Below are positions 7,041 through 52,930 of a stretch of 64,000 nt of DNA, piece by piece. Made by a program: the position numbers and the translations under genes. This DNA comes from Octopus vulgaris (taxonomy: Eukaryota). The DNA lies in contig OX597817.1 in assembly GCA_951406725.2 (NCBI GenBank), forward strand, positions 175,274,001 to 175,338,000, given 5' to 3'. Under the pieces are notes generated by a model. That model made no database searches. It was given only the letters and a program-made list of their open reading frames with translations, and had not been told where the DNA came from. The first letter of the stretch is position 1; the number at the start of each line of letters is the position of its first letter.

Positions 7041-7153
<113 letters not shown>

Positions 7154-8357: not shown

Positions 8358-8410
<53 letters not shown>

Positions 8411-8625
8411 CTGTGTCTGTGTTTCTGTGTCTGTGTTTGTCCCCCAACATCGATTGACAATTGATGCTGGTGTGTTTACGTCCCCGTAACTTAGCAGTTC
8501 GGCAAAAGAGACCGATAGAATAAGTACTAGGCTTACAAAGAATAAGTCCTGGGGTCGATTTGTTCGGCTAAAGGCGGTGCTCCAGCATGGCCACAATCAA
8601 ATGACTGAAACAAGTAAAAGAGTAT
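8195..8625 (+). mobile_element. SINE family B (about 430 bp, internal (TA)n/(TG)n)
   Basis: Head ...GTGTGGTA..TAG.TTGCTTACCAACCACATGGTTCCGGG.TCAGTC, tail GACTGAAACAAGTAAAAGAG. Further full or partial copies at about 7150-7380, 17260-17400, 25920-26570, 30350-30600, 30970-31348, 32629-32822, 34505-34880, 39745-40155, 44170-44700, 48890-49341 and 61440-61795. Confidence 0.9.
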
Positions 8626-9056
8626 AGATACAACATACAGGTGAGAAATAGTAGATTCAGAAGTGGTGACAAAGAGACGGACGTATATATACATATGTGA
8701 ACATATATGTGTACCAGTGTGTGTGTGCGTGTGCGTGTGTGTGTGTGAACATATACGTGAGTTCTTCTTTCTTACTCAGTGAAGAAACTGAGGAAATATT
8801 CGTGCGAGTTCAAACAAACATTTGTAGAGCAAAGATTTATAAAAAAATATAACAAAGTTTCGTTTTGCACTTATGATGGATGAATTACCCGTGGACGCTA
8901 TTTCGTTAATAACCTGTGCATTTATCTCTTAAAATTAGGGAAGCATTATTAACAACTTGTAAAAAATAATTCAATTTTTTTTTTTTTTTTTTTTTAGTAT
9001 TTTTCTTTTTACTGTAAATTCTTCTTTCACTTTGATGATACAATGCTTCTTGGTAT

Positions 9057-9649
9057 TTAACTTAAATCTGGCCTCTTTGAAGTAGTGTTGAAGATTTCTG
9101 TTGTGAAATTATGGTTGCACATGTCTTTGAAAATTTGTGGTTTGTCGTCTGCCAATTGCACCAACTGTTTGTAATTTGATACATAGTATGTGTAGTTTTC
9201 ATGAGGTTGACTGCTCAGAAAGTGGAAATCACGCGTATGGTTAGTTTGTCCTGAGCCAATGCTAACAACAAACAATCTTGTGCGTACTCCTTTGAGCTTT
9301 CTAGTTTCTTCAAGCAGGCTATCTGAAATATTCGTCATCTCTGAATCTACGAAGAGTACGGCTGTCGGAGTTCCCGAATGCTCTTTAAGTACAGTGTGTG
9401 TGTAAATAAGATTCCTCATTTTCTTCACAATATCAACAAGAGTCGGAAAATTATTTTCCTGAACTAGCTGTCGAGTGAAATTTGTCACTGATGTGAGAGG
9501 GATACTAAAGCCGCTTGGGCAATAAGCGTAGTTTGTAACACCGAAATATTGGTAAGTCATATATGGTAGAAGTTTGCTTATAAATGTCGATATCTTCGCG
9601 GTACGGTTATAGCCCAGGGACACCATGTCGTAACCAAACAGGATGACAG
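9057..9649 (-). CDS. Terminal coding exon of the VWA-domain protein (degenerate VWA-like domain)
   Basis: Acceptor TTCTCTTTCAAAG|CT (phase 1), 196 further sense codons to TAA at 9057-9059. VWA-like pattern (AVLFVD, RLFVVSIG, SSQPHENYTYYVSNYKQL, terminal Cys) without DxSxS. Seven N-x-S/T sequons. Confidence 0.85.
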
Positions 9650-10232
9650 CTTTGAAAGAGAAATAAATCAACGTTAATAAACACTCATGATTTTTTTCAG
9701 TTTTTAGATTTTAGTTCATTAATGTTATTCTATTTAGGCATGAGGCTTTGGTTATGTATATTGGTTTCAAATTTTGGTACAAAACCAGCAATTTGAACTC
9801 AGAACATAAAGATGGACAAAATGCCGCTAAGCATTTTTCCCAGCGTGCTAACGATTCTTATTTATTTACTGCCCACAAGGGGCTAAACATAGAGGGGACA
9901 AACAAGGACAGACAAAGGGATTAAGTCGATTACATCGACCCCAATGCGTAACTGGTACTTATTTAATCGACCCCGAAATGGGGATTCTAGAGGGAAATGA
10001 AAAGCAATACGCTATAACATTCATGACTTCTCTCACGGAACTAATTTGCATAAGTAAAGAGAAATTGTTTTAATTACTAATCGAAATCTCAATTCTATGC
10101 GCTCTTAAATTAATGATAAAGATGATTTCTTGATTAGGCGCCTTCAGCACCTCAAGGAGCCTAAAATTAAAAGTTTGAGAAGTTTATAACATACGTCCCT
10201 TTCTCTCTCTCTCTCTCTCTCTTTTCTTTCTT

Positions 10233-10263
<31 letters not shown>

Positions 10264-10272
10264 TTTCTTTCT

Positions 10273-10310
<38 letters not shown>

Positions 10311-11467
10311 TACACTTCTTTTCTTTCTCCGCGTATGTAACTCACATGAAGCGTGAGAATTTCACCTAACATCTGAATATACGAGCACCAATTTTCAATA
10401 GGTTTGAATGGAAGGCTTTATCCGACGACTGGATGCCTTTAGCGGGGCTCAGTTTGATAGAAACAAATAATTTCCTCGTGTTATTGCAAAGATAAAGTTT
10501 CAGGGAGGAAACTCTTATCAGATATTACTCATTTAATTCCTTATCTTAATGGAACACAAATTTTTACGAACTTTCTATCTCTCTTAGGCAATTAAACTTC
10601 AGGAATAAATAGTATTCATTTAGCCGTTGTTTTATACAGCCGTTGCTGCATGTGAGTTAAGGCAAAGCAAATTCAGTTTAATCTAATTAAATTAAACCAA
10701 ATGAATCAAACTAGTGATTCTGAGAAGAAGAGTAAAAAAGTTCGATGCTAACACAAGAAACGGTTGGATACTTACTTGCTTCGGTCTTCGGTAAAATCTC
10801 TGGCCTTCCTTTTCCTGAAAGAGGAAAAAGTTAGAGACAAAAGATAAATTAATAATTCTTTTTAGAATAGGAACAAGGTCGGAAATGCTGTGGTTGGGAG
10901 CTAGTTTTTGCCAGCTTGCTGCCTTAAAAAAAAAACCCTGCACTTCCTAACAACAGATGCAGCCATATGATAAGCATCTTGTCGTGCTAACGATTCTGGC
11001 AACTCGCCGCCTTCTTTTTTCTTTCTCCTACAGACATCAGTGTTTTCAATTGCGTTTTCACCTGTTAGCGTCTCCAGATGCAAACTTTGTTGTCTCTTGA
11101 CGTCTCTGGTTGGGACTTAGGCGCAACTCGTATAAATTAAAGTTATTATATAATGATATTAAAGATGAACTACAGCAAATATTCTGTTCAATACCACAGA
11201 TTTTCTAGTCAGTTATGTTACCTTAACCAGTTAACCCTTAGTGACTGACAATACGTGCTTCTCTGATCACGAGCAGAAGTAAAATTCTAACTGGGCCCCA
11301 CCTACAAGGTCATGCGTTGTTTATCTTGATATGAGATCACCATATCGCAGACATATGATTGTGACATATGATGTGACTTATAATACGAGTAATCATGATG
11401 GGTATACTGGGCTTCGTGTATTTTACCCTCCAATGTCACTTTGATGGCATGCACTGCTCTCTCACTC

Positions 11468-11537
<70 letters not shown>

Positions 11538-11539
<2 letters not shown>

Positions 11540-11835
11540 CAACCTTGACGATTTGAAGTGGGAAATACGAAGGTTGTGGTCAATGAGAAGAGTAGAAGTG
11601 GTACCAATAGCAACTGGCGAACTTGGAAGTATCAGCATTCATCTACAAACATGGCTCAATATGATTGGTACAAATGTAAAGGTAGAACACCTACAAAAAT
11701 CAGCTTTGCTTGGAACTGCAAGAATTCTTCGTAGGTGTCTTGAAGCACAACCAGTTAACAGGTGTCACCTTAGTCTGCTGTCCACAGACAGCTGATACTT
11801 TCCATTATACCCAACAAAATAAGCTGTTAGTGTTC

Positions 11836-11836
<1 letters not shown>
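11538..11836 (+). mobile_element. 3' fragment of an RLE-type (R4/Dong-like) non-LTR retrotransposon within (AAT)n
   Basis: LKWEIRRLW..VEVVPIATGELG..LQKSALLGTARILR is the C-terminus of a restriction-like endonuclease domain. (AAT)n on both sides. Confidence 0.85.
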
Positions 11837-11904
<68 letters not shown>

Positions 11905-11906
11905 TG

Positions 11907-11988
<82 letters not shown>

Positions 11989-12017
11989 TAATAATGATGA
12001 TGATAATGATAATAATA

Positions 12018-12048
<31 letters not shown>

Positions 12049-12057
12049 TAATAAATA

Positions 12058-12120
<63 letters not shown>

Positions 12121-12169
12121 CTACTACTACTAATAATAATAATAATAATACTACTAATAATGATAATGA

Positions 12170-12250
<81 letters not shown>
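11837..12250. repeat. (AAT)n/(GAT)n/(ACT)n trinucleotide array
   Basis: Direct reading. Confidence 0.98.
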
Positions 12251-12253
<3 letters not shown>

Positions 12254-12807
12254 CCCTGTTGCAGTACCAGGCAGTGGCTCTCGTGGCTTCTGATCTTAAC
12301 TGATTGGAAGTGTTATCGTGTACATTGTTTTGTCTTGGTATAAAAGATGGGCTACAGCAAATATTCTGCTCAACACCACAGATTTGCTTGTCAGTTGTTT
12401 GACCTTAACCAGTTGAGCATGTCCCTTAGTGGCTGACGATATGTGCATCTCTGATCACGAGCAGAAGTAGTGGGGGAGCATCATAGCCATGTGTTGAGAG
12501 GGATTTTTTGGGGGTTTGAATAATTCACCCCTGGAAACATGGGTGGTTCTTTCAACATCCTTAAACAACCCTTATTCAGGGACCTTTTGAGCGGGATGGG
12601 TTACTCGACCAGAAGAAAATTCTAACTGGGTCTTACCTGCAAGGTCATGTGCTGTTTATCTTGATATGAGATCACCATGTCACGCACATATGGTTATGAT
12701 GCATGTGCCTTGTATACCCTTATCAGATGGGTAGTCATGATGGGTATACTGGGCTTCGTATATTTTCCCCCAGTGTCACTTTGATGGCATGCACTGCTCT
12801 CTCACTC

Positions 12808-12808
<1 letters not shown>
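12251..12808 (+). mobile_element. Unclassified about 560-bp non-coding interspersed repeat ending in (AAT)n
   Basis: An internally deleted second copy at about 11160-11470 shares the identical 3' end GATGGCATGCACTGCTCTCTCACTC-(AAT)n. Confidence 0.7.
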
Positions 12809-12888
<80 letters not shown>

Positions 12889-12937
12889 AAGAAAAAGAAA
12901 AAGAAAAAAGAAAAAGAAAAAGAAGAAGAAGAAGAAC

Positions 12938-13812
12938 TGCCAAGAAAAAAAAGAAACAACAAAAGCTGTAAAACAACTGAAATCCAAACTAAAACTGGAA
13001 CAGCAACGTATCATGATAAAGCGATTTCCAGAAAATCCCTTCCATAGCAAACATTGGTTTAAACTAAATAGAAAAGAAATAGACAAAACAAAAGCCCAAC
13101 AATAGCTGAGAAGCTCAGGACTCAAAGCAGAGACTGAAGGATACCAAAAACGCAATGAAAAGAAATACAAGTAACAGCAGGATATGTGGAGATGGAGAAG
13201 AAACAAAAGATCATATTGTCTCTGGCTAAGAAGGAATATATTCACAGACACGACAGAGTTGGGACCTATATACACTGGAAGCTATGCCAACACTATAGAA
13301 TAGCAACAGAAAAAGATGGTATAGGCACACGCCAGAAAAGGTCACAGAAAATGAGAAAGTAACCATACTCTGGGATTTGCCAATACACACAGATAGAAAA
13401 ATTAAGGCCAACAAGCCAGATATAGTTGTCAGAGATCACCAAGAAAAAATGCTTTCTAATCGATGTATCAATACCAACAGATAACAATGTTTCTCTAAAA
13501 GAAACGGGGAAACTTTCAAAATACAAAGATCTGGAAATAAAGGTAACTTGAATGTGGAATCTAAAATCAGAAACAATTCCTATCATAGTACGCGTATTAG
13601 GTATGGTAAAAAAATATTCAGACCAATGCGTAACAAAATCATCAGGACTAACATGTTTATATAACATACAGAAAATAGCATTACTAGGCACTGCATACAT
13701 CCTACGTAAAACACTTTCAACACAGTAAAAGTAAGAGCATCACAACAGATCACAGCACATACCCAAGGCACAGAGAGCTGCGTTCGGTAGTGAAGTGAAA
13801 GTACGTGATAAA
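12938..13812 (+). mobile_element. RLE-type (R4/Dong-like) LINE 3' remnant
   Basis: Degenerate reading: YIHRHDRVGTYIHW, ILWDLPIHTDRKIKANKPDIVVRD, LIDVSIP, KLSKYKDLEI, IQKIALLG. Confidence 0.88.
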
Positions 13813-14222
13813 ACTAAGACCCCAACATAGTCGCAGTTCAGTTATTGGAACAAGTAAGAAAGCAAATCACAATTATGAAAAAATTTACTTCCATTATAAA
13901 TTAGTTATATGATATTAAAGCATTTTACAGATTATTTTTATAAGTCAAAAAGTAGAGATCTATTCATATATTTGTTCAAGGATGAAAATATTTGTCATTG
14001 TCCCAAAGCAATGCGTCATCATAACACTGAAATTTAATACATATATTTCGTTTACTTCTATCAAAAAGCGAGGAAGAATATCCACTCCTATGTACACACG
14101 CAGACAAACGCGCAGACAGACAGGCAAACAGACAGATAGATAGTGAAGCATACTTATGTTTACACACAGGCATTCACATACATACATACACACACTTGAA
14201 TTATCATTATTATTATTATTAA

Positions 14223-14292
<70 letters not shown>

Positions 14293-14311
14293 TTTATTAT
14301 CATTATTATTA

Positions 14312-14358
<47 letters not shown>

Positions 14359-14359
14359 A

Positions 14360-14394
<35 letters not shown>

Positions 14395-14396
14395 TA

Positions 14397-14767
14397 GTTT
14401 TATTTTTATAGCGTGCTTTCACTTCACTACCGAGCGCAGCTCTGTGTGCCTTGGGTATGTGCTGTGATTTGTTGTGATGCTCTGATGGTTATTGTATGGA
14501 AAGTGTTCTGCGTAGGATGTGTGCAGTGCCTAGTAGTGCAATTTTCTGTATGTTATATGTGTTTGTAAGTCCTGGTGTTTTTGTTATGTATTTGTCTGAA
14601 TATTTTTTTATCATGCCTAATGTACCTACTATGATAGGAATTGTTTCTGTTTTCAGGTTCCACATTCTAGTTACCTCTATTTCCAGGTCTTTGTATTTTG
14701 AGAGTTTCTCCATTTCTTTTAGAGACACGTTGTCATCTGCCGGTATTGATACATCAATTAGAAAGCA

Positions 14768-14770
<3 letters not shown>
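14397..14770 (-). mobile_element. RLE-type LINE 3' fragment, same family, inverted
   Basis: ORF 14489-14728 SLKEMEKLSKYKDLEIEVTRMW...IQKIALLGTAHILRR. 3' UTR matches 13730-13810. Flanked by (TTA)n. Confidence 0.9.
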
Positions 14771-14837
<67 letters not shown>

Positions 14838-14842
14838 CATCA

Positions 14843-14914
<72 letters not shown>

Positions 14915-14915
14915 C

Positions 14916-15007
<92 letters not shown>

Positions 15008-16894
15008 TAGTCATGATCTTTACAAATCCTTTGAAATCCATGTGATACAGTGCAAAATGTTCACCAACGATACTCCTCATCTTTTTATTAAGGTTTTCTT
15101 ACTTCAACACCACGTTCATTTGGTGTTAAGCAAATATAACATTTTTATTTGAATAGTGGAGAGTGTTGGAAACAAGGCGTGTTTATTGAAAAGCTTCTCG
15201 TCCAAAATCTAAAGTCGTTACAAACCGTTTTGTCAATCCTCATTTCACATGAAGTAGGTAACAAAAAAATCATATAACGGTTTTGGCTGTCATTCTCTCC
15301 GTGGAAGTCCCTGAACTTACTGGTAAGAGTCATCAACAACCCTGCAATCCCATAAGCAAACAAAATACGATTATTTTGTTCAACTACCCAATAAATCAAA
15401 AATAAACCAAACACATCGTTAAAGACTTCAAATACATTTCAGTCTTTTACTACACAAATGTTCAGTAGAGGAAAATATTATTCACTTCTACATAATTGCT
15501 GTTGTTGTTGCGTTGTTTAGCCCCGCATTAATTCCAATAAGAAGACCTACCAAAAAAGGATCTGACCATCCTATGTCTTTGTGTGTGTATCAGGGATTAC
15601 ATTTTTCAGTGTATCCTTTATTTAAGACGATAGAGTGTAATTTGTGGATTGGTATGTCTGGGAAGTGAAATGGTCACTTATAGTTCCTAGTTACGAAAGC
15701 TGGCAAATATTTAGTTGCTAAATATGGCATCTTTAGATTACCACAAGACTATGAATAGCTGATGATGCTGGGTAAATTTCAGTTTTGTATACTTTATTAA
15801 ATTAAAATGTTTTAAAATCATGATTTAAAATAGTATCCTGTAGTTTACTTTGTTCAATAAGGCTTCAAATGAAAAACAGAATAGAAAGATATGGAGGATG
15901 AGTTCAGAGAGGCAAAGGAGTTGGTGAAACTTAAAACTTTCAAGAACCAGAAACCTAGACGTTAGGAATAATAAATTCAGTTATAAATAATTAGAAATTT
16001 TACATTAAAACTTTTAATCTACCTGGGTAATTGAAAAGAAAAAGTTGGAAGTTAAACTCAAAAATCAGCTCTTCAAACCATAAAATCTTATTTAGAAGTC
16101 GACAAAATGAAACCTCGAAAATGTGTTTCATTCTTTGATTGAACACAGAAACAAGAAGGAAATAAAATTTTTTTAATATGTATCTAAGTATTTTATGATT
16201 TTAGTATGAATCAAATTTTAATCTATTTAGTGTCTTTACATCGATTACACAACGTAACACATTCTGCTACCGTTTTTCGTTTCTCCTCATTTTGCCACAA
16301 TCTTTTCTCGAGTCTAGAACGTTGACTCAAAAAGTTATTAGTCTTTCTCTATCGTCAGCTGAAACGGATTCTATGTTGTTGTTTTTTTAATCCGAAAAGT
16401 TATACGATAGTAAAGGGTATTTTCACTTACATATAAAAATTATAATGTTAAAAGTTATCTACATATTATCATTTGCATAAGTTCCTCTTTTTCTAATTTT
16501 CAATCGATATCACCTGATCATTTTCACACATTTATAAGGAAAGATAAAGTCAAAATAACGACCTTCATCCCAAAAGTCAAGAAGTTAAAGGACAAAAATA
16601 TCGATTTCCATCTAACGTGGAATATCAAAACTTTATTCATTATATACATACATATATATATATATATGTATGTGTGTATATATATATGTATATATGTATT
16701 TATATATATTTCTTTACTACCCACAAGGGGCTAAACATAGAGGGGGACAAACAAAGAATTTGAACTCAGAATGTAACGACAGACGAAATACGGCTACGCA
16801 TTTCGCCCGGCGTGCTAACGTTTCTGCCAGCTCGCCGCCATAAATAAATATGTATTTATATATATATATGTATTTATATATATAAATATGTATT

Positions 16895-16944
<50 letters not shown>

Positions 16945-17002
16945 ATAACAATATAATAAATAAATAAATAAAATAAATAAAATAAAATAAATATACATAT
17001 AC

Positions 17003-17077
<75 letters not shown>

Positions 17078-17096
17078 ACAATTATTCGGTAGCCAT

Positions 17097-17157
17097 GATA
17101 AGACTCCGAATTTCAGATGTCGGGGCGAAAACCTACGCTGGTATCTCTTCAGTTATC
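17097..17157 (-). ncRNA. Hammerhead-like motif, imperfect
   Basis: Minus strand GATAA-CTGAAGA-GAT...ATC-T-GAAA-TTCGGAG-TC-TTATC: 5-bp stem I, intact core boxes, GUC site. Stem II is weak or out of register by one base. Confidence 0.55.
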
Positions 17158-17400
17158 GGGCCATCGAACAAAAATGCTATGAAAATGACCGTTAAACAAA
17201 GGGGAATTATTGTGTGATTGACCGTTATTAAGATAAAAGAGCTATTAGAATGACCGCTACGTCCCCGCAACGTAGCGGTTCGGCAAAAGAGGCCGATAGA
17301 GACCGATAGGCTTACAAAGAATAAGTCCTGGGGTCGATTTGCTCGACTAAAGGCGGTGCTCCAGCATGGTCACAGTCAAATGACTGAAACAAGTAATAGA

Positions 17401-17457
<57 letters not shown>

Positions 17458-17550
17458 TATTAGGGAATAAATCCAAACTTACAGGGAAAATCAGATTTAG
17501 GATTAAATCCAATTTTATAGTATAAATATATTATATTATATTATATCAAA

Positions 17551-17786
17551 TTAGAGATTAAACCACTATTAGGCAAATCAAACAATGAAAAACATAAGCC
17601 AATACATAAAATTAATTAATTTATATTATTTTAAATATATATCAAAAGTATTAAAAGTTTACTCTTTATCTTTTATTAAACTTTTAATACTTTTGATATA
17701 TATTTAAAATAATATAAATTAATAATTTTATGTATTGGCTTATGTTTTTCATTGTTTGATTTGCCTAATAGTGGTTTTATCTCTAA
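17551..17786. repeat. Fold-back inverted repeat (about 110-bp arms)
   Basis: TTAGAGATTAAACCACTATTAGGCAAATCAAACAATG... mirrored by ...CATTGTTTGATTTGCCTAATAGTGGTTTTATCTCTAA. Confidence 0.92.
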
Positions 17787-17992
17787 TGTAATATTATATA
17801 TATATATGAAATATAGAAAACTGCCGTTTACCCTGTTTCGCCAATCATTTAATTATGCTTCTGTAGAACAAGAGTTATGAATAATATGTTTTTCAAGACA
17901 CAGAAGAGCTGGTGTGGATTTTCTATAGCCATAAATTATAGTTTAAAAATTTGAGATCTGATTTAACCAATAACTGAAACATATCTGCTTCA

Positions 17993-18250
17993 TTGTGTCT
18001 GGGGAGAGTCATTTTCTTCTTGTGCCTTATTATGTAACAGACTCACCGGTAAAATTTCCGCGCTTTTCTTATTTTTATTTTCCTAAAATTTTCGTTGCGT
18101 CTTGCAACCTTTTCAATAGTTTTGACTTGAAAAAGTTGAAAGACGCAACGAAAATTTTTTGACAATAAAAATAAGAAAAGCGTGGAAATTTTACCGGTGA
18201 GTGTGTTACATAATAAGGCACAAGAAGAAAATGACTCTCCCCAGACACAA
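17993..18250. repeat. Fold-back inverted repeat (about 122-bp arms, about 11-nt loop)
   Basis: TTGTGTCTGGGGAGAGTCATTTTCTTCTTGTGCC... mirrored by ...GGCACAAGAAGAAAATGACTCTCCCCAGACACAA. Confidence 0.93.
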
Positions 18251-18415
18251 CAGAATATGCTTCAACGCACGAACTCATATAATGAATCTTGCAAACCAAA
18301 TCCCAAAACGAAATATCTGTTTCATTTATTACAAGAAAAACGAGTGTTTAGCAAAAGCAGTAAAATATGGGTTTCCACAGAATCTGACTCTGGTTAGCAT
18401 TTATTGATAACTTAC

Positions 18416-18652
18416 CTGGTTTGTCTTGCGGGCTGGTTTCATTCTTGTAGTTGCTGGTTGTTGTTGTTTCAGAGATAGAAATAGTAGTTACTGGTGTAGG
18501 AACAGTGATATATGATAGAGTAGTTGTAGTGCTTGGTGAGACTTCTGTGGTGCTTGTATCATTTACTTTCAGCACAGGGGACTTAGTCGTCTTCTCAAGC
18601 ACAACAGGTGTTGTCTTTGATACGATGTTACCGGGAACTTCAGGTTCACCAA
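18416..18652 (-). CDS. Internal exon: Thr/Ser/Pro/Val-rich mucin-like linker of the VWA protein
   Basis: Acceptor AATTTCAG|TT, donor CAG|GTAAGT, 237 nt, phase 1-1. Encodes VGEPEVPGNIVSKTTPVV...TTTSNYKNETSPQDKP. Confidence 0.85.
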
Positions 18653-19106
18653 CTGAAATTAAAATTTCCCATATTAACATCATCGGCAGGACAAACAACA
18701 AGGATCAGAACATTGGTTAGTCAACTGCTCGAAAACCTCATTCAGGCGGTTGAGACTAATGTCTTGTTTGAACTATTGAAGTTTTGAATTACATATTGTG
18801 CCATTGAAGTTTTAGATTACATATCCATGAATGTGATCTAAACAATCGTCCGTTCAGAGGATTAACCAGAATTATGCAACCAAGCGAAATGGGACAATTT
18901 GGCGCTGCTGTTTGGACGCTGACGATTTGACATGATTAACTGGACGTTGAACATGTTCTGGCGACAATATATTTTGGCACAGGTGGCAAATACATAGTCT
19001 TACATTCACACACGCAAGCACGCAGAGCTATGCGCTCACAAATAGAGAGGAATAAAGAAAGAGAGAGAGAGAGAGAGAACGGGAGAGAGAGAGATAAAGG
19101 GAGATA

Positions 19107-19147
<41 letters not shown>

Positions 19148-20224
19148 GAGAAAGAGAGTAAGAAAGGAAAGAGAAAACTAGAGAAAAATTATAGCATCTG
19201 ATGTCAAGTTAGTCGAATCAGTGATACCGAATAAACGACACCGAAACGACCATCCGAAACGTCTCATACTCGGAAGTAGGTGACATTCAATACTACTTCT
19301 TATGTATATGTTCAATAAACATACTACTAAATACATATAAAAATATATAACTTGATGAAGTTATTCCTTATTAAGAAATTAAAAGATGATCACATGTTAA
19401 AATGGCTGACAGTTATATTAAAATAAAGAGAAATAAATTGTCTTTGTACGATTTTATGAAGAAAGGTACATAATGTATAGATCCTGAATAGGGTAAAATT
19501 TGCTGAAAGCTTGTATTATTAAGTTTATAGACCCCTGTCATTAAATCTTGGTTTTCCTCCTTTTTCTGCATCCAAGTCTTAACAAAGAATCAGGCATCTT
19601 CGCATCTTCGAGAGCTTCCTTCGTTAATTTCCAAATGAAATTTTATAGACTGAATTACTGATTTAAAATGTAACGAATTTAAACTTGCTTTCTTTTTAAC
19701 ATCGAAGATTTACCGTTTTCTTGCTCTAAATAATTTAAAGCTCTAACAAATTCGGATTGAAGTCGAAACCACACAGCTGCAAAGCAATCTACTCAGCCAT
19801 ACGGCCGTGTCTGTGTTTAATATTTTCCAAGATAAACTGAAGGTGATAAAGTTTTTCCAGTATATGTTTTGGTTCACGCCATCCGAGTTTTAAAATCAAA
19901 TCATAAAATGACTGGATGGTCATGGCTTGGAAATCGTTCACGATTTTTGAATCCCAGATTGAATGATTAATATATTTCAAAATAAACGAAGGCTAATTGG
20001 GCACCGGACTACACTCACTTTAGAGTATTTTTTTATCAACTCTTTTTGAATTTTAGAATCAAACCAGGGAAAAAGCGAGCTGGTTATGGCTGGGAAATTT
20101 TTAACTATAGATTTCATCAATCACATCAGATCTGAGGTTAAACAAAGGGCAGCTGAGCGCAAGACAAAAGGTTTTGCTGTATATTATTCAGTTTCTTTAA
20201 TCTTTAACATCAAACTTTATTTTT

Positions 20225-20515
20225 TTTTTATGCGCCCTTTTCAAGCCTAGACAGGCTCATGGGTCCGGTTTCCCGGCTTCTGTGGCGAATGTGTTCTCCC
20301 CCAGCTGGACGGGACGCCAGTCCATCGCAGCGTTACTCAAAAAACAAGAAGAGAGAGTGAGAGAAAGTTTGGGTGAAAGAGTGCAACAGGGGTCGCCCCC
20401 CCCTGCCGGAGTCTCGTGGAGCTTTTAGGTGTTTTCGCTCAATAAACACACACAACGCCCGCTCTGGGAATCGAAACCACGACCCTCCGACCACGAGTCC
20501 GCTGCCCTAACTTAG
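20225..20515 (-). mobile_element. tRNA-derived SINE family C
   Basis: Minus strand TTAGGGCAGCGGACTCGTGGTCGGAGGGTCGTGGTTTCGATTCCC (tRNA-like). Relatives at about 24570-24745, 25560-25735, 59605-59920 and 63580-63750. Confidence 0.75.
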
Positions 20516-21595
20516 CATCAAACTAGAGGAAGTAAAAAAGACAGCATGGTCACAGCTGGAAAATCGTTAGTTCTTGTGTAAGTTGGAATTAAGCCAAAAA
20601 GAATCGACAAGGGTTTTCATAATTTGGGGGCTCATAATTGTTTTTACTTGTGACGTCACTGTATCGCCCACACTATCAGATGTTGGTCACAACGTACTTC
20701 CACGCATTGCTGTGGCTTTTAAATTATGCTCTCACGTTGGATAGGCGGGCAGACGAGCATTCCTCTTGTCGCAGAGTTACCCATTTATAGCTGAGTTTGA
20801 TGCTAAAGCTGAAAGAAACTCAATAATATAAAGCAAGCTGAACTGTTTTGCTCAAGAACACGATGCACACTGGTCTGGGGCATCGAAACCACAACCTTGC
20901 GACCGTGATTGCAATACCCTAACCACTGGCCCATGCGATTTCACACTAGTGACATACTAGGTTTAAATACGTTGGCGCATCTAGCGTGTGTGCCGCCCCA
21001 GGCTGTGCTTGAGTTTGCCGCCTAACACTTCCACTCCATGTACTGGTTATACAACAGGCCGAAAAGTGCTGCCTCTATAAAAGCGTCGCCTGGAGCAGAT
21101 CGCCTCTCGCTCCTACTCCAAGCTACGCTATTGGTTGCGTCAAGTTTTAAAAAATTATATTTCTGTACATTTAAAAATATATTTAGTAATTTTTTCTATT
21201 ACACTACTTAAGTTTATTTCCATGTATGGGAAACTGAATAATGACATACATACATACATACATACATACATACATACATACATACATACATACATACATA
21301 CATACATACATACATACATACACATGCTTATAGTCTTATACACGTTGCATTTCATATATATATATATCATTAACAGTTTGTGACTCAAATTAAAAGAATT
21401 CACTGTTTATTTAATCCTATGTTTATAATTTACAACTTAAATACTAATAAGCAAACATATATGCACGTATATATGCATATGTGTGTGTGTGTGTGTGTGC
21501 ACATTTACATATAGGTGCATAGATAGATATATATGTGCATGCATGTAAGTATATATGTATCTATATCTATATCTATCTACATATATATGTATGTG

Positions 21596-21654
<59 letters not shown>

Positions 21655-21657
<3 letters not shown>

Positions 21658-22880
21658 CTCTCAAAATTGGCAAATGTTGGAATCCGTGGAAAAGTTCTAC
21701 ACTGGATTCAGTATTTCCTAGCGAATAGAACACGACATGTTGTAGTTGATGGAGTCCACTCAAACCCAGCAAAAGTCACCAGCGGTGTTCCCCAGGGAAC
21801 TGTTTTGGGTCCGCTACTCTTCATAATTTATGTAAACGACCTTTCCAGTGTCGTACATCACTGCAAAGTGAAAATATTCGCTGATGACACTAAGCTCCAG
21901 CAAATCGTCAATGAAGAAGCAGACCGAACTCAACTCCAGTCTGACCTATATGCTGTGAGTCAATGGGCAGACAGAAACAAAATGCAACTGAATGAGGGAA
22001 AATTTGAGCTGATGCATTTTGGAAGAAATTCCTCACTAAAACAACCATACTCTCTTCCTTCAGGGGAACCGCTCACAGCCTCTAACAATATCAGAGACCT
22101 GGGTGTAATTGTTGATGACGATCTCAGTTGGAGTGCACACATCAACAAGAAGGTCGATACAGCTCGTAGGATGAGTTCCTGGATCTTAAGAACTTTCCGG
22201 TCCAGAGAACAAGGTGTCATCATACCACTTTTTTCATCCTTTGTACGGCCACACCTTGAATACTGCTGCCCACTGTGGTCTCCTCACACAAGACAAAACA
22301 TCTCCAGAATTGAGTCACTCCAGAGGGCTCTCACTAAACAAATTGAAGGCATGGCTGCCCTCGATTATTGGGATCGCCTTAAAGCCTTGAAACTTTACTC
22401 CCTCCAGCGTCGCCGTGAGCGGTACATCATTTGTACGATGTGGAAAATATACCGCTAACTTTGCCCAAACGACCTAAACATTAGCTTCAAGGTTCATCCG
22501 AGACTTGGACCACGGGCTATACGTCCCCTGCCAAATTCAAGATCACAACATACATGTACACTGCAACATAATTTCTTTTCCTCAACAGGCCCTGCCCTAT
22601 TTAACATTGTCCCGAGGGAGATCAAAGAGGAAAAGGATCCCATCAACTTCAAACAGAGTCTGGATAGATTCCTTCAAAGAATACCAGATAAGCCACCCAT
22701 AATTGGATACAACTCACCCAACAAGAACTCACTACTTGAACAAAACTGGATACAACTCACCCAACAAGAACTCACTACTTGAACAAAACTTGACTTAAAC
22801 AGGATTCGAATAATCCTATCAGGTGGTGCTATTAAGTTAGACATGGCCTGGACCAATCTCTGGTCGAAACATATCTAAGT
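21655..22880 (+). mobile_element. 5'-truncated CR1/L2-group LINE (reverse transcriptase and 3' tail)
   Basis: SGVPQGTVLGPLLFIIYVNDL, FADDTKL, RDLGVIVD, VRPHLEYCCPLWSP, SLQRRRER, then a premature stop. The same 3' tail occurs at 33256-33415 and, inverted, at about 62195-62260. Confidence 0.95.
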
Positions 22881-26343: not shown

Positions 26344-26604
26344 CGTGTATGTGTGTGTGTGTGTGTGTTTGTGTTTGTCTCGCATCACCGCTTGACAACT
26401 AGTGTTGCCTTGTTTACGTGCCCGTAAGAGACCGATAGAATAAGTCCCGGGCTTTAAAAAAACCCACATAAATATGAGTATTGGGGTTGGTTTGTTCGAC
26501 TAAACCCTTCAATGCAGCGCCTTTCAATGGCAGCAGTCTATTAACTGAAACAAGTGAAAGATAAGAGACAATAGATATTCAAACAAAAAAATATATTAAA
26601 TTAC

Positions 26605-27159
26605 CTCTGCAAGACTTTATGAAGAAGTTTTTCCCAATAGATTCCAAAGATTTATAATTGAAAAATCTATAGACACCATTATCTGGGTCACTTGCAATAA
26701 CTTTTAATTCCTTTATATGATATTTTTTACCGATTCCGATAGCATAGACTTTTATACCAAGTCGATGGAGATTTGCCGCTTCTGCTTTTGTCTTTCTGTG
26801 GGAACGGGAATTACCATCTGTGATAACTATTGTGACCAAAGTGGCGTTGCTTTTGACTAATGACTGGAATTGCTCTTTAACAAGTTTTAGAGCTGCTGCT
26901 GTATTTGTCCAACCACTTCGGTAACGAATTTTACTAATAGCTTTTTGCAGTTTTTCTTTGGTAACATATTGTCCAATAGGAAATTCCAAATGGGCCTTTT
27001 TACTGTATGTTATAACACCCATGCGCATTTTATTCATACCCACTTCAAAAGAATCAACGAATTCCTGTATAAATTTCAGAAGCCGCTCATAATCCTTTGG
27101 CCAGATACTTGAAGAAGAATCCAATACAAACAAGATGTCGGTTTCTTTTCCAACGCATT
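26605..27159 (-). CDS. Internal exon encoding a complete VWA domain (matrilin / collagen VI-XII-like)
   Basis: Acceptor TTTATTTCTAG|AA, donor GAG|GTAATT, 555 nt, phase 1-1. CVGKETDILFVLDSSSSIW...GWTNT...IVITDG...YAIGIG...IASDP...C has intact MIDAS residues and flanking cysteines. Confidence 0.96.
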
Positions 27160-28302
27160 CTAGAAATAAAAATTAAAAAAAGAAATTAGTGAAACAAAAT
27201 GGATATTATTATGAAATTCGTTAAGAGAAAAGTGCAAATATTTATCAATTATAAATGACTTGCAGAATTGAATTGATTCCGTCCTTTAAACTTATGCCTT
27301 CAAATATTGCAGAGATTGAATTTACTTTTTTTTTTATCTTGGCGGATCGATAAAAATAAAAGCCAGTAATAAAATAGAAATGATTTCACTTGATTATATC
27401 GACCCCACTTCAAAAATAATTGTTTTTATATCTCTACTAAAACCTAATCAGTATGTATTTATTCAGTATTATTGCTAACAGCTCTGTTTTTCAATAAATC
27501 TTTTACACGGAATTTACAACAATCTCAAATGGTTGTACTAGCACAAAATTCCAGACGCCGATGCTTCACACTGCAGTTGAAATATTCATATCTTGTAGCA
27601 AACTCATTTCCAGACAGGAATATTTTTTTACACCTAATGCCGTTCATGACTAAATCTAGCTAGCATTCTTTTGTTTCTATAAAAAGTGTTAATGCTACTT
27701 AAAAAGGACTGAAAGCTGAGTCGGTAGGGAGCCGTTAGAAAACTACTCTAACGACCAGAACGCACACACACATATATAACACACGCGTGGCCCTCCACAT
27801 CCTACCTCTCTTTCTCACACAGAGCAAAATTCTCGGCTGAAGCATCAGCAGTATTCTAAAAGTTGACGAATTTTCGTTGGCTTTCAAATAACTTCAATTT
27901 TACCGCGGGAAAAGTTTTTGCAGATTGTTCTCCTTTAAATTCATTGGGATATTTTACCCACAAAAGCGTAGATCAACAGACAGTATTTACATTTGATTGT
28001 ATATTATAATAGAATCGGTGAAATAAGTACTAATAGTATATGCAAGAATGATTAAATCGAGGGCTTTAGGGTTCCAACTTAGCGTTTTAAATGCGGAACA
28101 ATATTTCAAATGAAATGCAAAATGCACGGGCAAATAGACAAAACAAAAAAACAAAAAAACAAACTAACAAATATATAATAAGGTAAAAAAAACAAAGCAA
28201 TCCGAGACAGAGTTCTCATAGCTAAGCAATAATTCCCAGATATTTTCATATCCAAAATCACTTCGAGCTCAAATCATTTTGTGATTTCATCTAGAATTGT
28301 TG

Positions 28303-37680: not shown

Positions 37681-37715
<35 letters not shown>

Positions 37716-37876
37716 CGTATTTTTGCCATTTCAATATGGCTAACCCCTAAGGGTGGATGCTGCTGTAGTTTTTAGCCCCAGGAGGACACACTCCTCCAGC
37801 TGGCCATAGACACACTATCTGTGTCCTGTCAGTATTTGCAAAGGGAAGTCATCCTTCCCGTCTTCAACTTATGATA

Positions 37877-37921
37877 CACACGGACTCGAGTTTCGAGGTA
37901 TTGACCTCTCGTCAGCGTGTG
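37877..37921 (-). ncRNA. Type I hammerhead ribozyme (intact consensus)
   Basis: Minus strand CACACG-CTGACGA-GAGGT caat ACCTC-GAAA-CTCGAG-TC^CGTGTG. Confidence 0.93.
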
Positions 37922-38229
37922 ACAAACATAGTTGTCGCCGAGAATTAGATTTCCTTCACAAATACTTATACTTTTTCCAGCGTCCACTGTCGCTGATATT
38001 GAAAAAGTGAAATCAAACAATGATAAATATCAAAGTGAGTTATATACAGTAGCGGTAACACATCGTGACGTATTTTTGCCATTTCAATATGGCTAATCCC
38101 TAAGGGTGGATGCTACTGTAGTTTTTAGCCCCAGGAGGACACACTCCTCCAGCTGGCCATAGACACACTATCTGTGTCCTGTCAGTATTTGCAAAGGGAA
38201 GTCATCCTTCCCGTCTTCAACTTATGATA

Positions 38230-38274
38230 CACACGGACTCGAGTTTCGAGGTATTGACCTCTCGTCAGCGTGTG
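38230..38274 (-). ncRNA. Type I hammerhead ribozyme (intact consensus, second copy)
   Basis: Identical to 37877-37921. Confidence 0.93.
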
Positions 38275-38422
38275 ACAATCATAGTTGTCGCCGAGAATTA
38301 GATTTCCTTCACAAATACTTATACTTTTTCCAGCGTCCACTGTCGCTGATATTGAAAAAGTGAAATCAAACAATGATAAATATCAAAGTGAGTTATATAC
38401 AGTAGCGGTAACACATCGTGAC

Positions 38423-38494
<72 letters not shown>

Positions 38495-39993: not shown

Positions 39994-41229
39994 AGACAGG
40001 TTTTTTTCAGTTTCTGTCTACCAAATCCACTTACAAGGCTTTGGTCGGCCCGAGGCTATAGTAGGACACTTGCCCAAGGTGCCACGCAGTGGGACTGAAT
40101 CCGGAACCATGTGGCTGGGAAGCTAGCTTCTTACCATATAGTCGCTCCTGTGCCTATGTATATACGGTTTGTTTATAAATAATCTACTGGTTTCCGCCCA
40201 TCCATCGATCTCTCTATATATTGCCAATAATTTCTTAAGCTTGGCTTGGAAATGTTTTTTCACAGAACACAAATATTCTTAACTGTTTTTCCGACTAGAT
40301 TCAAAGATAAATTACAGTTGCATAACAAATACGCGGAGCGCGATTCCAAGAAATAACCACCACAAATAAAAGGCATCTAGTATACTCATTAACTCAGAAG
40401 TTTATGCTGTAGACATATATATATATATATATCCCAAATTTCCATAACCTATAAAACAGCAGAAATAATTTATTGTCAAATTTGCGATTTATATCGCTTT
40501 GAATGTTCGGTTGGCCACGGTAATGATTCTGGCATTTCAAAATTTTTGATATCATCGGCTTGCATAAATATCAGTAACAGCCATCATGATCGCTATCACC
40601 TGTTGATGAAGACGAGATGTGTTTATGTAATTATAACTAGACATTTCCTTTATAAACAAGGATCCATATCCAAAGAAAGGATATATCGAGTATGTATAGG
40701 AGTCTATATTATGCAAACGCAGGCTTTACTCTCCTCCATATTTTCGTCGTGTTACTAAAAATGTGTATACGCCTCGTTTTATTTTATTTATTACTAACTA
40801 ATATAAATGGTATATACGCATGTATGCGTACGTTTATTGCATGCTTATATGTGCTCATTATTTTGACAATATGCCTCATCATTGTATCTGACCCGTGATA
40901 AATAAATAAAAATTAAACTATTGCATATTAGCGAGGTAGCCTTTAGGTGGTTGCTCGACATGCTATAAATAGTAGCCAAATTATCCTGAAGATATATCTT
41001 ACTGTTTCAGCACTCTGCTGTTTGGAACATGTACGTAAACTACTTCCATTCTTACAAATCTCACTTTATTTTCTTGCTTTTAACTCAAGTTTCAATACAC
41101 TTTACACACTCTTTCGCTATACTTGCATAAACAATTTCTTTCAGCTGCAAATATTTCTTTCTTTTCCTTCCACGGTCAACATTTTTCCACATTTCATTCA
41201 CATTACAATTTCTATCTTTAAGTAACTTT

Positions 41230-42362
41230 CACCCTTTCTTTTTCACATAAAATGACACCGAAAAAGAGAAGTCGCCTCGGCCGCCATACTGCAGCAGCAG
41301 CGGCGCAAAAGGCGATTATCGCAAACGAGTCCTCCGACAAAAACGCTTTCAGACTTTCACAGAGCGCCTTACGTTCAGCGGAATCACGAGCTGCTGAAAA
41401 TTTACAACAGCGCAACGCACGCCGAGCAAAAGTGGCTTCATACGATGCTGCTTCCAGGGCTTCAGAGGGTCCGGAAACAAGGCCGAATCGCATGGCCATA
41501 AAGGCAGCTGCTGTTGCTGCACAAAGGGCTTCAGAGGACCCACAACAAAGGCCACTCGACTGGCTACAAACGCTGCGGCTAATGCTGCTTCAACATTTTC
41601 GGAACATTTACAACTACCGACCACTCACCTTCATACGAACGAGGCGCATTGCACTGCTTCCATGCCTTCTCAACATGCAGACGGCCGGTACATTACCATT
41701 GCAAACTTCGCTTCTGCTACTCATGCGACATTCCCACGACTCAAACCAGCAACGTTCTACATTCCAGAGGAACAGTCGACGGCGCAAGGCTACCCGCAGT
41801 CTGACGAGTCCAAACAGCCCTTACTGGCATCTACGGGCTTTCAAGTATGAGCCCAGCTTCAATTACTCGATGAACGCTGACATAAATATTGGGGAAATGT
41901 GCTTCAATTGCCAATTCTGCAATGCTAAAAAGTGAGCTGGGGAACCACCTGCAATGTGCTGCTTAAACGGTAAGGTCAGCTTGCCCCCTCTTCGGGAGCT
42001 GCCAGACCCTTTGAAGGAATTACTTAATGGTTCCATCTCAAGGTCATCAAAATTCCTTCAACTCGTCAGGAAGTACAATTGTGCATTTCAGATGACTTCT
42101 TTCGGGGTTAACGTTGTCAGAGAAACTGGTTGGATGCCTACTTTCAAGGTCCAGGGCCAGGTGTGCAACCTCGCATTCAATTCTTACACCATTCTACGAG
42201 GGGGTAGGAACCCCTTTACACGGCTTTCTTATACACTTACAAATACATTCATTCGCCGTAAACTTATATCAATATTTGCCTGAATAATCATCATAATTCA
42301 CTGCAATCATTAACAGTACTTTCAAGCAATTCAGCACCGAGCAACGCCGGGCAATTCTGCTA

Positions 42363-47333: not shown

Positions 47334-48583
47334 GTTATCCCATAAGTTCTCTCCGATTTTACCTTTTTTAAAACTGAATGAAATTTAATAGTATTTTATT
47401 ATGTCTAATAGAATTAAAAATTATTTTTATACATTTGTCTACATTTAAACTAATTAAATATCATTTTACAGAATAATAGAATTAAAATTTCTTTGATTAA
47501 AACCTTTTCTAACATGGAAGTATCCAAAGAGCATTTGAGGCACATAATGCTCTATGAGTACAAAAAAGGAAACTCTGCAGCCGAAGCCACTCGAAGCATA
47601 CACTCAGTTTATGGGAAAGAATGTTTGAATGAAAGAACTTGCAGAAGATAGTTTGCAAAATTCTTAAGTGGAGATTTCAGCCTTGAAGATGAAGATCGAA
47701 CAGGACGTCCAGTTGAGTTTGATGATAAGCTCCTTGAGGCATTACTTGAAGAAAAACCTGCATTATCAGTTGAAGAATTGGCGATAAAGCTTAGTTCAAA
47801 CCATACAACTGTTCATCGTCATCTTCAACAACTTGGAAAATGGGTACCTCATGAATTGTCCAAAAGCAACCGCAAATCCCGAGTTGACATCTGTTCTTCT
47901 CTCCATTCTCGCGAACTCATTTCACCCTTTTTCGATAGACTTGTGACTGGTGACGAAAAGTGGATCTTCTATCGAAATGTTAAACGTCGTTAACAGTGGC
48001 TTGGTAAAAGGGAAACAGCTCAACCGCAACCGAGAAGGGAACTTCATGGAAAAAAGTTCTTCCCTCTATCTGGTGGGATCGCAAAGGAGTAATTCACTTT
48101 GAATTGTTACCACCTAATGCAACAATCAATGTTCAAATCTACTATCAGCAATTAGAGCGTTTGGACCAAGCTTTGAAGAAAAAAAGACCCGCTTTAGTGA
48201 ATCGAAAGGTAGTGATGTTTCATCAGGACAATGCGCGACTCCACACTGCAAAGATCACATCACAGAAGATCGAAGAGCTTGGTTGGGAAAAAATTCCTCA
48301 TCCACCTTATTTCCTCGACCTTGCTCCTTCAGACTACCATTTGTTTCGTAGTTTACAGAATCATTTGGGGGACATAACTTTCGCAAGCCAGGAGGAGGTC
48401 GAAACTTACATTTCAGAGTTCTTCGCTTTGAAACCAAAAGAGTTTTACATTGATAGGATTAAAATGCTTGTAAATAGATGGAAGGAAGTCATAGATAATC
48501 AGGGAAAGTAAATTGATGATTAAATATCAATTATATATAACATTTGATCACTTATTTTCTTTATTCAAAACTTGTGGGATGAC

Positions 48584-51679: not shown

Positions 51680-52930
51680 CGAAAATACAAAATTTACCAG
51701 TTTTATGAAAGGAAATAAATTCTACCACGTATGTTGCAGGAAATTATGTAAGAGCTTCTGGGTAAACAACATTCTTTGTTTTCTGGTTTGGAGCATAGAC
51801 AAATGAGTCTTGCAAACTACCTACCTCGGAGCAGCCAACATAGTTGACCATGAGAAAAGCAAGCCAGTAGATTTCAAAGACTGACCTTGAGCTTTATTAA
51901 TAGACATTGCAAAGCGAAGTTGCATTGGGAATTTTGTTCGTTTGAACTCAAATGGCATGTCTTGATTGGTTTGATTGGAATTCTTGGAACAAAAACCTCT
52001 TCCCCAGAGTCACATCCAGTGATGATGGTAGCGTCTGTCACTTTAGGTGATAATGTCTTCACAATCAACCATGTCGCATTTTATCATTTAGGAGGATCTA
52101 AATTTCTTAGAAATATCATTGGGACTCCTACCTTCAGAAAAAGTTTATGTGGAGGAATTCCAGGTGGCTCAAGAAAATTAAGGAACTCTATTGGGTAATG
52201 GACAGCTTGATTTTCATCAACTGATTTGTGCTTCTTAATGACTGTTGATATTCATTAATTCATGGTTAATTCTTGCCACTGTCTCATTTTTTTGAGTATG
52301 AATTCCTCTTTCACGCAACCATTTATGTGAATTATAATTATTACTTAATTCTGGTAATATCCTGTTCTTCAATCCAGCTGGAGAATTCACTATGGTAGCA
52401 ATATGAGCCAAACTGATATCACCATTCCCATCAAATAGTATTTTCCTGTTTCCTAATTGGAGGAGCCAAGTTGAAAACTGTTTTGCACATTGGTCCCCAT
52501 GTAATGAAGCTCGTACGTTAGTATTGAAGGAGAATTTCAGTACTTTATTCCATAGGTGTGAAGATTTCATGCATGCTTTTATTTTATCAGATGTTGTTCG
52601 TCTCAGAAGGACTGGTAATGTCTGTCTGAAGTCTCCTGATAAACTAATGTAACTCCTCCCATAAATTGAATGTCACCTTTGATGTCCTATAAGGTCTTAC
52701 CAATAGGTTCCATTCACCTCTATGTGACATGGTGCATTCATCCAAATGATAAGGTGGCATTAGCACAACACTTCTGGTGAACCTAAATCTTTGCTTATGT
52801 TACAAATTGGACTGTCACTTGTGATCAGGTTTACGGGTAATTTAAAAGCAGAATGAGCTGTTCATCCTCCTGGAAGAATGGTGGCAGCAAAGCCAGACAA
52901 TGGTACAGCAACTGCAATTCTTTTGTTGCC
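51458..52930 (-). mobile_element. Helitron PIF1-like helicase remnant with 3' terminus
   Basis: KSSHLW, FSTWLLQLGN, PPHKLFLKVGVP, ATIITG..GEEVFVPRIP, and SGDFRQTLPV near 52610-52640. Minus-strand end CCCGGGCAACGCCGAG...CTGG|T. Confidence 0.9.

What the first reader, a model, noticed from the sequence alone, without database searches (positions are those of the whole stretch)
37712..38426. Two-unit tandem of a 353-nt non-coding monomer, each unit with a perfect hammerhead: candidate cephalopod retrozyme / circular RNA element
Seen: two near-identical 353-bp units plus 9 nt, bounded by (TA)n on both sides. Each has, on the minus strand, a consensus type I hammerhead (6-bp stem I, CUGACGA, 5-bp stem II, GAAA, palindromic ACUCGAGU stem III, GUC site). 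The unit boundary does not coincide with the cleavage site, so the insert is a circular permutation. Established: metazoan non-LTR retrozymes are short tandem monomers with type I HHRs that yield unit-length linear and circular RNAs and are thought to use Penelope-like RT, and short palindromic stem III motifs cleave best as dimers. Inference: a minus-strand transcript would cut at 38236/38235 and 37883/37882 and release a 353-nt RNA, and the insert arose by reverse transcription running twice around a circle. I cannot tell whether this family is already catalogued.
Basis: partly seen in the sequence, partly recalled or inferred. Interest (0 to 1): 0.9.

Follow-up and report, generated by a model that had tools for sequence, protein, structure and literature searches.

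The report
Ribozyme repeat riding Penelope retrotransposons
This is one young copy of a 353-base non-coding repeat with a hammerhead ribozyme motif, present hundreds of times in this animal genome, whose copies start at two fixed points and often sit head-to-head in TA microsatellites, so it is likely a small RNA (probably circular) that borrows the enzyme of Penelope-like jumping genes to spread.

Summary
Confirmed: 2 x 353 bp + 9 bp between (TA)n runs, a type I hammerhead motif in each unit on the minus strand, predicted cuts 353 nt apart. It belongs to a young dispersed family (407 exact hammerheads; older subfamilies bring a conserved motif to 6,722 matches). Copies start at two fixed internal sites (A, and B 44-49 nt away), neither being the cleavage site; only the far end varies. 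Of 74 loci, 32 are head-to-head with one A and one B end; none is A+A or B+B. Target duplications are 10-15 bp. This is the Penelope-like element (PLE) 'tail' anatomy, also seen in autonomous PLEs of this genome. Units and both arms of one locus share one haplotype, including locus-private changes, which fits repeated copying of one (probably circular) RNA. No copy ran into an ORF as its own 3' end, and no sequence-related PLE partner was found. Cleavage, circles and expression are untested. Verdict: new member of the known non-LTR retrozymes, with unusually clear junction evidence for PLE mobilisation.

The parts
37712..38426 (-). Whole insertion: 2 x 353 bp + 9 bp. The predicted RNA is the minus strand; the plus strand is the inferred cDNA, primed at the left end (site A)
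37712..38064 (-). Unit 1 (rare changes at monomer 51 and 215)
38065..38417 (-). Unit 2 (rare change at monomer 33)
38418..38426 (-). Start of a third unit; variable far end, joined to (TA)n through a shared TAT
   Evidence: the same end at position 9 in L007 and L029
37877..37921 (-). Type I hammerhead motif 1; predicted cut 37883/37882
   Evidence: RF00163, 32.2 bits, E 6.2e-6
38230..38274 (-). Type I hammerhead motif 2; predicted cut 38236/38235
37883..38235 (-). Predicted 353-nt unit-length RNA between the cuts; strongly self-paired
   Evidence: -116.6 kcal/mol, z -6.4; circular fold -111.4, z -5.3; covariation
37709..37714 (+). Site A junction, (TA)n|GTGACG: the fixed start used by this copy
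   Evidence: 316 exact (TA)4-site A junctions in the genome
38016..38064 (-). 'Tail' between site B (monomer 305-310, window 38016-38021) and site A; internal here, terminal in B-started arms elsewhere; conserved in sister families. Second copy at 38369-38417
38047..38118 (-). Predicted multiloop closed by the CAGUAGC/GCUACUG helix and containing site A; candidate enzyme-recognition element (inferred)
   Evidence: one pair G-C in 9, A-U in 4 of 14 sequences
37683..37711 (.). Left (TA)n target microsatellite
38424..38491 (.). Right (TA)n target microsatellite

Best explanation
The insert is a young copy of a dispersed, non-coding hammerhead-bearing tandem repeat (a non-LTR retrozyme) whose copies start at two fixed internal sites, and it was likely written into a (TA)n microsatellite by the reverse transcriptase/GIY-YIG endonuclease of a Penelope-like element copying a probably circular 353-nt RNA about twice round. 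Steps: (1) inferred: minus-strand transcripts of multimeric copies self-cleave to 353-nt monomers, which are ligated to circles. (2) Inferred from junctions: a PLE protein cuts AT-rich DNA with a 10-15 nt stagger, and each 3' end can prime cDNA at a fixed internal site, A or B, 44-49 nt apart and 171/220 nt from the cut. (3) Shown: when both ends carry an arm, one starts at A and the other at B, and both arms have the same haplotype; inferred: one RNA molecule serves both primers. (4) Shown: arms run 0.1 to 6 units and stop at variable points; inferred: they are joined to each other or to the other target end by microhomology. In this copy one arm, from A, ran 2 units + 9 nt and was closed on a shared TAT.
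For: Fixed starts: 74 distinct young loci give 32 A+B inverted, 0 A+A, 0 B+B, 30 single A, 5 single B, 7 with another end. In 40 further loci picked only by their A junction, the other end was B in 21, a short B stub in 5 more, and A-like in 1. A and B are not the best (TA)n-complementary windows (ranks about 33 and 107-132 of 353), so they are not simple microhomology sites. Target duplications of 10-15 bp at 8 of 13 tested sites. Sister families at about 65% identity keep the same two sites and the tail motif. Autonomous PLEs here show the same layout: A+B in 5 of 5 loci of a 784-aa family with both ends visible and in L128 of a 781-aa family. PLE protein in vitro starts at two adjacent internal sites bounding the tail and extends both strands (PMC11167929). 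One template per locus: concordance at six common polymorphisms is 1042 of 1051 within loci and 440 of 447 across arms, against 10046 of 14092 between loci; 11 private and 7 rare variants are present in every covering unit of their locus. Structure: 63 both-side changes against 28.8 in shuffles, 0 of 500.
Against: No PLE sharing sequence with the monomer was found among the PLE loci examined, and their measured tails are shorter (about 31-38 nt, read by eye) than 44-49 nt. Four loci (L042, L101, L122, L126) carry a variant in some but not all units, on both arms: at least some templates were multimers, or gene conversion occurred. There is no pile-up of ends at the cleavage site (2 of 116 pieces at 165-175, 3.6 expected), so the junctions give no trace of cleavage; a circle predicts this, but so does an uncleaved transcript. 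In the published PLE assay ribozyme cleavage was not needed. The hammerhead fold is about 6 kcal/mol above the circular minimum and the Rfam score is under the gathering cut-off. Only 1 of 9 predicted Xenopus retrozyme dimers cleaved in vitro. The covariation count rests on a few related lineages and on a structure derived from the window sequence.
Confidence: 0.65

Rival explanations
1. Same PLE-driven two-site priming, but the template is only linear uncleaved multimeric transcript (or template jumps between linear RNAs); the hammerhead is a passenger or acts elsewhere, and no circle is copied.
For: Unit-specific variants shared by both arms in 4 loci, in matching order in L101; no ends at the cut; unprocessed RNA was the dominant substrate of a PLE in vitro.
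Against: Linear copying can only shorten arrays, yet homogeneous 5-6 unit arms exist (L094, L126). 18 private or rare variants are fixed in all covering units of a locus, which needs a monomer bottleneck followed by re-multimerisation. The 407 exact hammerheads are spread as short arrays in the 100 places listed (the other 307 not seen). The hammerhead helices covary across subfamilies.
Confidence: 0.22
2. The copies are 5'-truncated ends of an autonomous PLE not yet found, whose 3' region itself holds tandem hammerhead repeats (a pseudo-LTR, not a separate retrozyme).
For: The anatomy is identical to that of PLE ends; earlier scan notes reached this verdict for look-alike inserts in other genomes (unchecked); my PLE survey was incomplete (150 scored of 6,136 to 20,386 candidates per search).
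Against: In 132 loci, 65 single-orientation copies showed no shared continuation beyond their far end apart from B stubs and offset generic repeats; arms of up to 6 units end in (TA)n or an inverted arm. The young PLE families seen have their own, unrelated, shorter hammerhead-like motifs. The one direct junction to a PLE ORF (L004) is in the opposite orientation to a pseudo-LTR.
Confidence: 0.09
3. DNA-level origin: a minisatellite grown by local duplication or unequal crossover, or a fold-back/MITE-like DNA transposon with tandem arms.
For: Inverted arms superficially resemble terminal inverted repeats; the 2026 preprint invokes local amplification.
Against: The two ends are asymmetric (A against B), the inner junctions vary, 38 of 74 loci have one orientation only, duplications are 10-15 bp, and array lengths are non-integer from a fixed start. 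The window's units differ only by changes rare in the family.
Confidence: 0.04

Closest known systems
Metazoan non-LTR retrozymes (Cervera & de la Pena 2020, PMC7229834; review PMC7761336)
   Same: Non-coding 150-450 bp tandem monomers, GC under 50% (42.8% here), canonical type I hammerhead in each unit, self-paired RNA, longer target duplications; the mussel family is 350-390 bp. The paper proposes circles copied by an RT and names PLEs as a strong candidate.
   Different: In the parts read (parts 2-4 of 6 plus a term search of the main text) there is no cephalopod, no inverted arrangement and no fixed start sites; the supplement could not be read. Circles were shown there and are untested here.
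Li, Clavereau & Pollet 2026 preprint (10.64898/2026.07.22.740005)
   Same: Retrozymes as non-autonomous PLE derivatives; this element meets its definition of an 'active' retrozyme (two consecutive units with complete motifs).
   Different: 35 species, no mollusc; evidence is co-occurrence and pLTR homology (24 of 57 Xenopus families). No end, tail or inversion analysis in parts 1-3 of 5. Here the link is junction anatomy, and no pLTR homologue was found.
Endonuclease-positive Penelope-like elements (Craig et al. 10.1101/2021.04.23.441226; PMC3846280; Frangieh et al. PMC11167929)
   Same: Partial tandems, inverted 5'-truncated arm, a tail usually on one end only, 8-10 bp duplications in rotifer examples, microsatellite bias, two internal RT start sites, both strands extended.
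   Different: No ORF; the tail is 44-49 nt rather than 30-40; a canonical rather than minimal hammerhead. In vitro no difference in start site between strands was seen, whereas here inverted insertions use one A and one B almost without exception.

Membership tests
Non-LTR retrozyme | Tandem non-coding monomer of about 150-450 bp, GC under 50% | tested here: met
   353 bp, GC 42.8%, longest stop-free stretch 66 aa; no tRNA gene
Non-LTR retrozyme | Type I hammerhead motif in each unit | tested here: met
   RF00163 twice, E 6.2e-6, 1.8 bits under gathering; helix covariation
Non-LTR retrozyme | Multicopy, dispersed, monomer to multimer | tested here: met
   407 exact motifs; arms up to 6.02 units
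Non-LTR retrozyme | Non-autonomous: not the end of an ORF-bearing element | tested here: met
   No run-on into a shared sequence or in-sense ORF in 132 loci; a sample, not the whole family
Non-LTR retrozyme | Target duplications longer than 4 bp when present | tested here: met
   10-15 bp at 8 of 13 sites, across young, older and sister families; not readable at this locus because the target is (TA)n
Non-LTR retrozyme | Self-cleavage of the RNA | not testable with these tools
   Needs in vitro transcription
Non-LTR retrozyme | Unit-length linear and circular RNA in vivo | tested here: inconclusive
   No holder on record as RNA; only contigs available
PLE-mobilised element | Two fixed internal start sites bounding a tail, tail on one end | tested here: met
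PLE-mobilised element | Inverted 5'-truncated arm and partial tandems | tested here: met
   36 of 74 loci inverted
PLE-mobilised element | Sequence shared with the pseudo-LTR of an autonomous partner | tested here: inconclusive
   None found in the PLE loci examined; survey incomplete
Autonomous Penelope-like element | RT + GIY-YIG ORF | tested here: not met

The most novel reading that the evidence does not exclude
An independent RNA-structure parasite with no PLE sequence ancestry left: several diverged families keep a hammerhead, a rod and a structured two-site start element that mimic a PLE's initiation signal. A dimeric PLE protein holds one circular RNA, each subunit priming one end of the DNA break at its own site (A or B), and both copy the same circle at once. 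The strict one-A-one-B rule and arm-shared private changes would be a genomic record of an asymmetric RT dimer doing rolling-circle reverse transcription, and the retrozyme-PLE chimera at L004 would be such an event caught with two different RNAs.
Probability: 0.3. Interest if true: 0.75.

Novelty: new member of a known kind. Interest (0 to 1): 0.5.

Why it matters
Which enzyme moves animal retrozymes, and whether the circle is the template, is stated as open in the papers read: PLEs are called 'a strong candidate', and the 2026 preprint offers co-occurrence and homology. Here hundreds of near-identical copies carry the PLE signature at base resolution, and the genome holds several young PLE families with long intact ORFs. 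That gives a defined 353-nt RNA, two predicted start sites and a short list of candidate enzymes for an existing in vitro assay. The class itself is known, and unchecked scan notes report the same anatomy in ribozyme-free repeats elsewhere.

Tried and rejected
Partner search. A GIY-YIG family search, fetches of 36 PLE regions and two protein searches showed young (TA)n-ending families with 781-, 784- and 884/1008-aa frames, a further young family (L176 type) and several older ones. None aligned to the monomer beyond shuffles or 14-17 nt chance hits; L075 scored slightly above its 20 shuffles (80 against a maximum of 72) and L130 scored 94, neither followed up. Retrozyme copies beside PLE pieces in L166, L169, L176, L183, L208, L218 and L238 are separated by microsatellite or other DNA, or inserted into old copies, and were taken as neighbours. 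Two pattern searches for a second end of the 1008-aa family gave no common site. A Pfam accession recalled for a PLE domain was not in the library.

Expression. No RNA holder listed. 14 holding runs are only guessed to be RNA. Two of them (X1, X2, one study) each gave a 383-nt contig (353 + 30) closing the unit, with unique flanks uncovered; a tandem transcript or DNA gives the same contig, so this is not used as evidence. No empty allele could be read through the microsatellites.

Run-off at the cut. 2 of 116 arm pieces end at 165-175; 4 of 40 A-anchored arms end at 161-175 and none at 171: no clear signal. The hammerhead-core mutation count is biased by selecting exact motifs and was ignored.

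In one search five loci were mis-oriented by a slip in my strand list; L076 and L088 were handled correctly in later calls. Duplicated loci L010, L037, L158 and overlapping fetches were dropped before counts; L091 was also left out. A two-molecule fold did not show the stem III dimer and says nothing on dimer cleavage.

Literature searches found no paper describing a cephalopod retrozyme or twin priming of retrozymes. Repbase/Dfam could not be checked, the supplement of PMC7229834 was unreadable, and preprint supplements are closed; these may list the family. Scan look-ups by sequence and by first word set were empty.

Full report
Observation. The tandem is real: period 353, two copies plus 9 nt at 37712-38426 between (TA)n runs, with three differences between units. 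Rfam's type I hammerhead model matches both units on the minus strand (32.2 bits, E 6.2e-6, gathering 34), and the predicted cuts lie at 37883/37882 and 38236/38235. The unit-length RNA folds far better than shuffles (z -6.4 linear; z -5.3 circular, plus strand -95.5 against -111.4 kcal/mol). The active ribozyme fold is about 6 kcal/mol above the circular minimum. The monomer has no ORF over 66 aa and no tRNA.

Family. The host genome (2.8 Gb, 227 contigs; taxon not tested) gave 2,409 candidates for the monomer, of which 40 were scored. The exact 45-nt hammerhead occurs 407 times (control 0). A loose hammerhead pattern gives 796 matches (control 2), including sister families of 359 and 360 bp at about 65% identity. 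A motif from the monomer's end gives 6,722 matches with up to 2 mismatches (control 2); the 20 loci fetched were older subfamilies, mostly 79-94% identical with short arms. Young copies differ from the majority base at 243 of 52,917 sites (0.46%) and fall into 9 haplotypes among 63 fully typed loci. On 14 monomers from these subfamilies 85% of cells pair and 63 change on both sides against 28.8 in shuffles (0 of 500); slid controls pair at 38-46%. The sequences are related and the structure came from the window copy, so this is support, not proof.

Ends. Reading the plus strand as cDNA, copies begin at site A (monomer 351-1, the window's left end) or site B (303-310). Among 74 distinct young loci (chosen by best score or by exact hammerhead in coordinate order), 32 are head-to-head with A at one end and B at the other, none A+A or B+B, 30 single A, 5 single B, and 7 have another end; 98 of 110 start ends abut TA-rich DNA. 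In 40 loci chosen only by their A junction (first-listed unfetched ones of 316) the other end was B in 21, a short B stub in 5 more, A-like in 1, and a plain far end in the rest. If each arm chose its site independently, at most half of inverted loci would be A+B. A and B rank about 33rd and 107th-132nd of 353 windows for pairing with (TA)n, so protein or structure, not microhomology alone, likely fixes them. A lies in a predicted multiloop closed by a covarying helix, and the sister families use the homologous two sites. Non-microsatellite insertions have 10-15 bp duplications (8 of 13 tested).

Link to PLEs. A tail on one end only, with an inverted truncated arm, is described for PLEs (passages of 10.1101/2021.04.23.441226, and PMC3846280). 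A purified PLE protein starts at two adjacent internal sites that bound the tail, extends both strands, prefers AT-rich DNA and does not need ribozyme cleavage (PMC11167929, parts 1-2 of 4). This genome holds young PLE families with long open frames of 781 aa (RT and GIY-YIG by Pfam), 784 aa and 884/1008 aa, all ending in (TA)n. The 784-aa family shows A+B in 5 of 5 loci with both ends visible. None shares sequence with the monomer, so the partner is unnamed. One locus (L004/L263) joins a 1.89-unit retrozyme arm head-to-head to a truncated 784-family copy between two (TA)n runs, with a 7-nt filler resembling the monomer. The arm starts at a non-standard site (251), so this single case suggests co-occurrence in one event but does not name the usual partner. 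In 132 loci no copy continued into a shared sequence or an in-sense ORF, which argues against a mere pseudo-LTR.

Template. Within a locus, units and both arms agree at six common polymorphisms in 1042 of 1051 comparisons (440 of 447 across arms) against 71% between loci; 11 private and 7 rare variants occupy every covering unit of their locus, and 146 private or rare variants are singletons (73 loci). This fits one RNA serving both primers and a monomer being re-multimerised, as on a circle. Four loci carry a variant in only some units but on both arms, which points to multimeric templates or conversion in some events. No pile-up of ends at the cut was found. The window's two units share the commonest haplotype and differ by changes rare in the family, as expected for later mutation. 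Sequencing runs gave no usable evidence on expression.

Comparison and verdict. The element meets the sequence-level features of non-LTR retrozymes (PMC7229834, parts 2-4 of 6 and a term search; PMC7761336 passages; 2026 preprint parts 1-3 of 5); cleavage and circles remain untested. Searches found no description of a cephalopod retrozyme or of this end anatomy in retrozymes, but supplements and repeat databases were not visible. New member of a known kind. PLE-type mobilisation is about 90% likely, the full model with a circular template about 65%. Interest 0.5.

Noticed in passing
L004 / L263 (G000:C17:47711500-47714100): Chimeric head-to-head insert: retrozyme arm from a non-standard start joined directly to a 5'-truncated young PLE (784-aa family) that ends in its own tail, all between (TA)n runs.
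   Followed up: partly
L127-L130, L231-L242, L243-L262, L176/L183: At least four young (TA)n-ending PLE families, three with many intact 781-1008 aa frames. Their pseudo-LTRs carry short hammerhead-like motifs; in the 781- and 784-aa families the core looks, by eye, like a U3-A8 variant.
   Followed up: partly
L131-L139, L170: Sister retrozyme families of 359/360 bp with a shorter palindromic stem III (ACCGGU), the same tail motif and the same two start sites.
   Followed up: partly
L140-L146, L148, L064:430-1020: Further, older hammerhead-bearing dispersed repeats with no BLAST match to this monomer.
   Followed up: no
L153, L154, L167, L238: An older subfamily has a changed catalytic-core position (CCGAUGA) and a mismatch at the base of stem II, yet spread widely; a natural test of whether cleavage is needed.
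   Followed up: no
L101, L042, L122: Unit-specific variants appear on both arms, in the same order from the ends in L101 but offset by one unit in L042 and L122; may record multimeric templates.
   Followed up: partly
window 9057-9710 (-) and 26579-27172 (-): Two von Willebrand factor A domain frames, probably exons of one gene; the insert lies about 10 kb 5' of the second on the same strand as the ribozyme, so host transcription might read through it.
   Followed up: no
window 41222-41935 (+), 52235-52672, 48008-48511, 21523-22458, 1106-2325: Fragments of other mobile elements: an STPR-domain frame; by eye a Helitron-like helicase piece, a mariner-like transposase, a LINE reverse transcriptase and an LTR-type pol piece (labels recalled, not tested).
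   Followed up: no
L009/L010, L032/L037, L157/L158: Identical or near-identical insertions with shared flanks at two places on one contig: segmental duplications or assembly duplicates.
   Followed up: no
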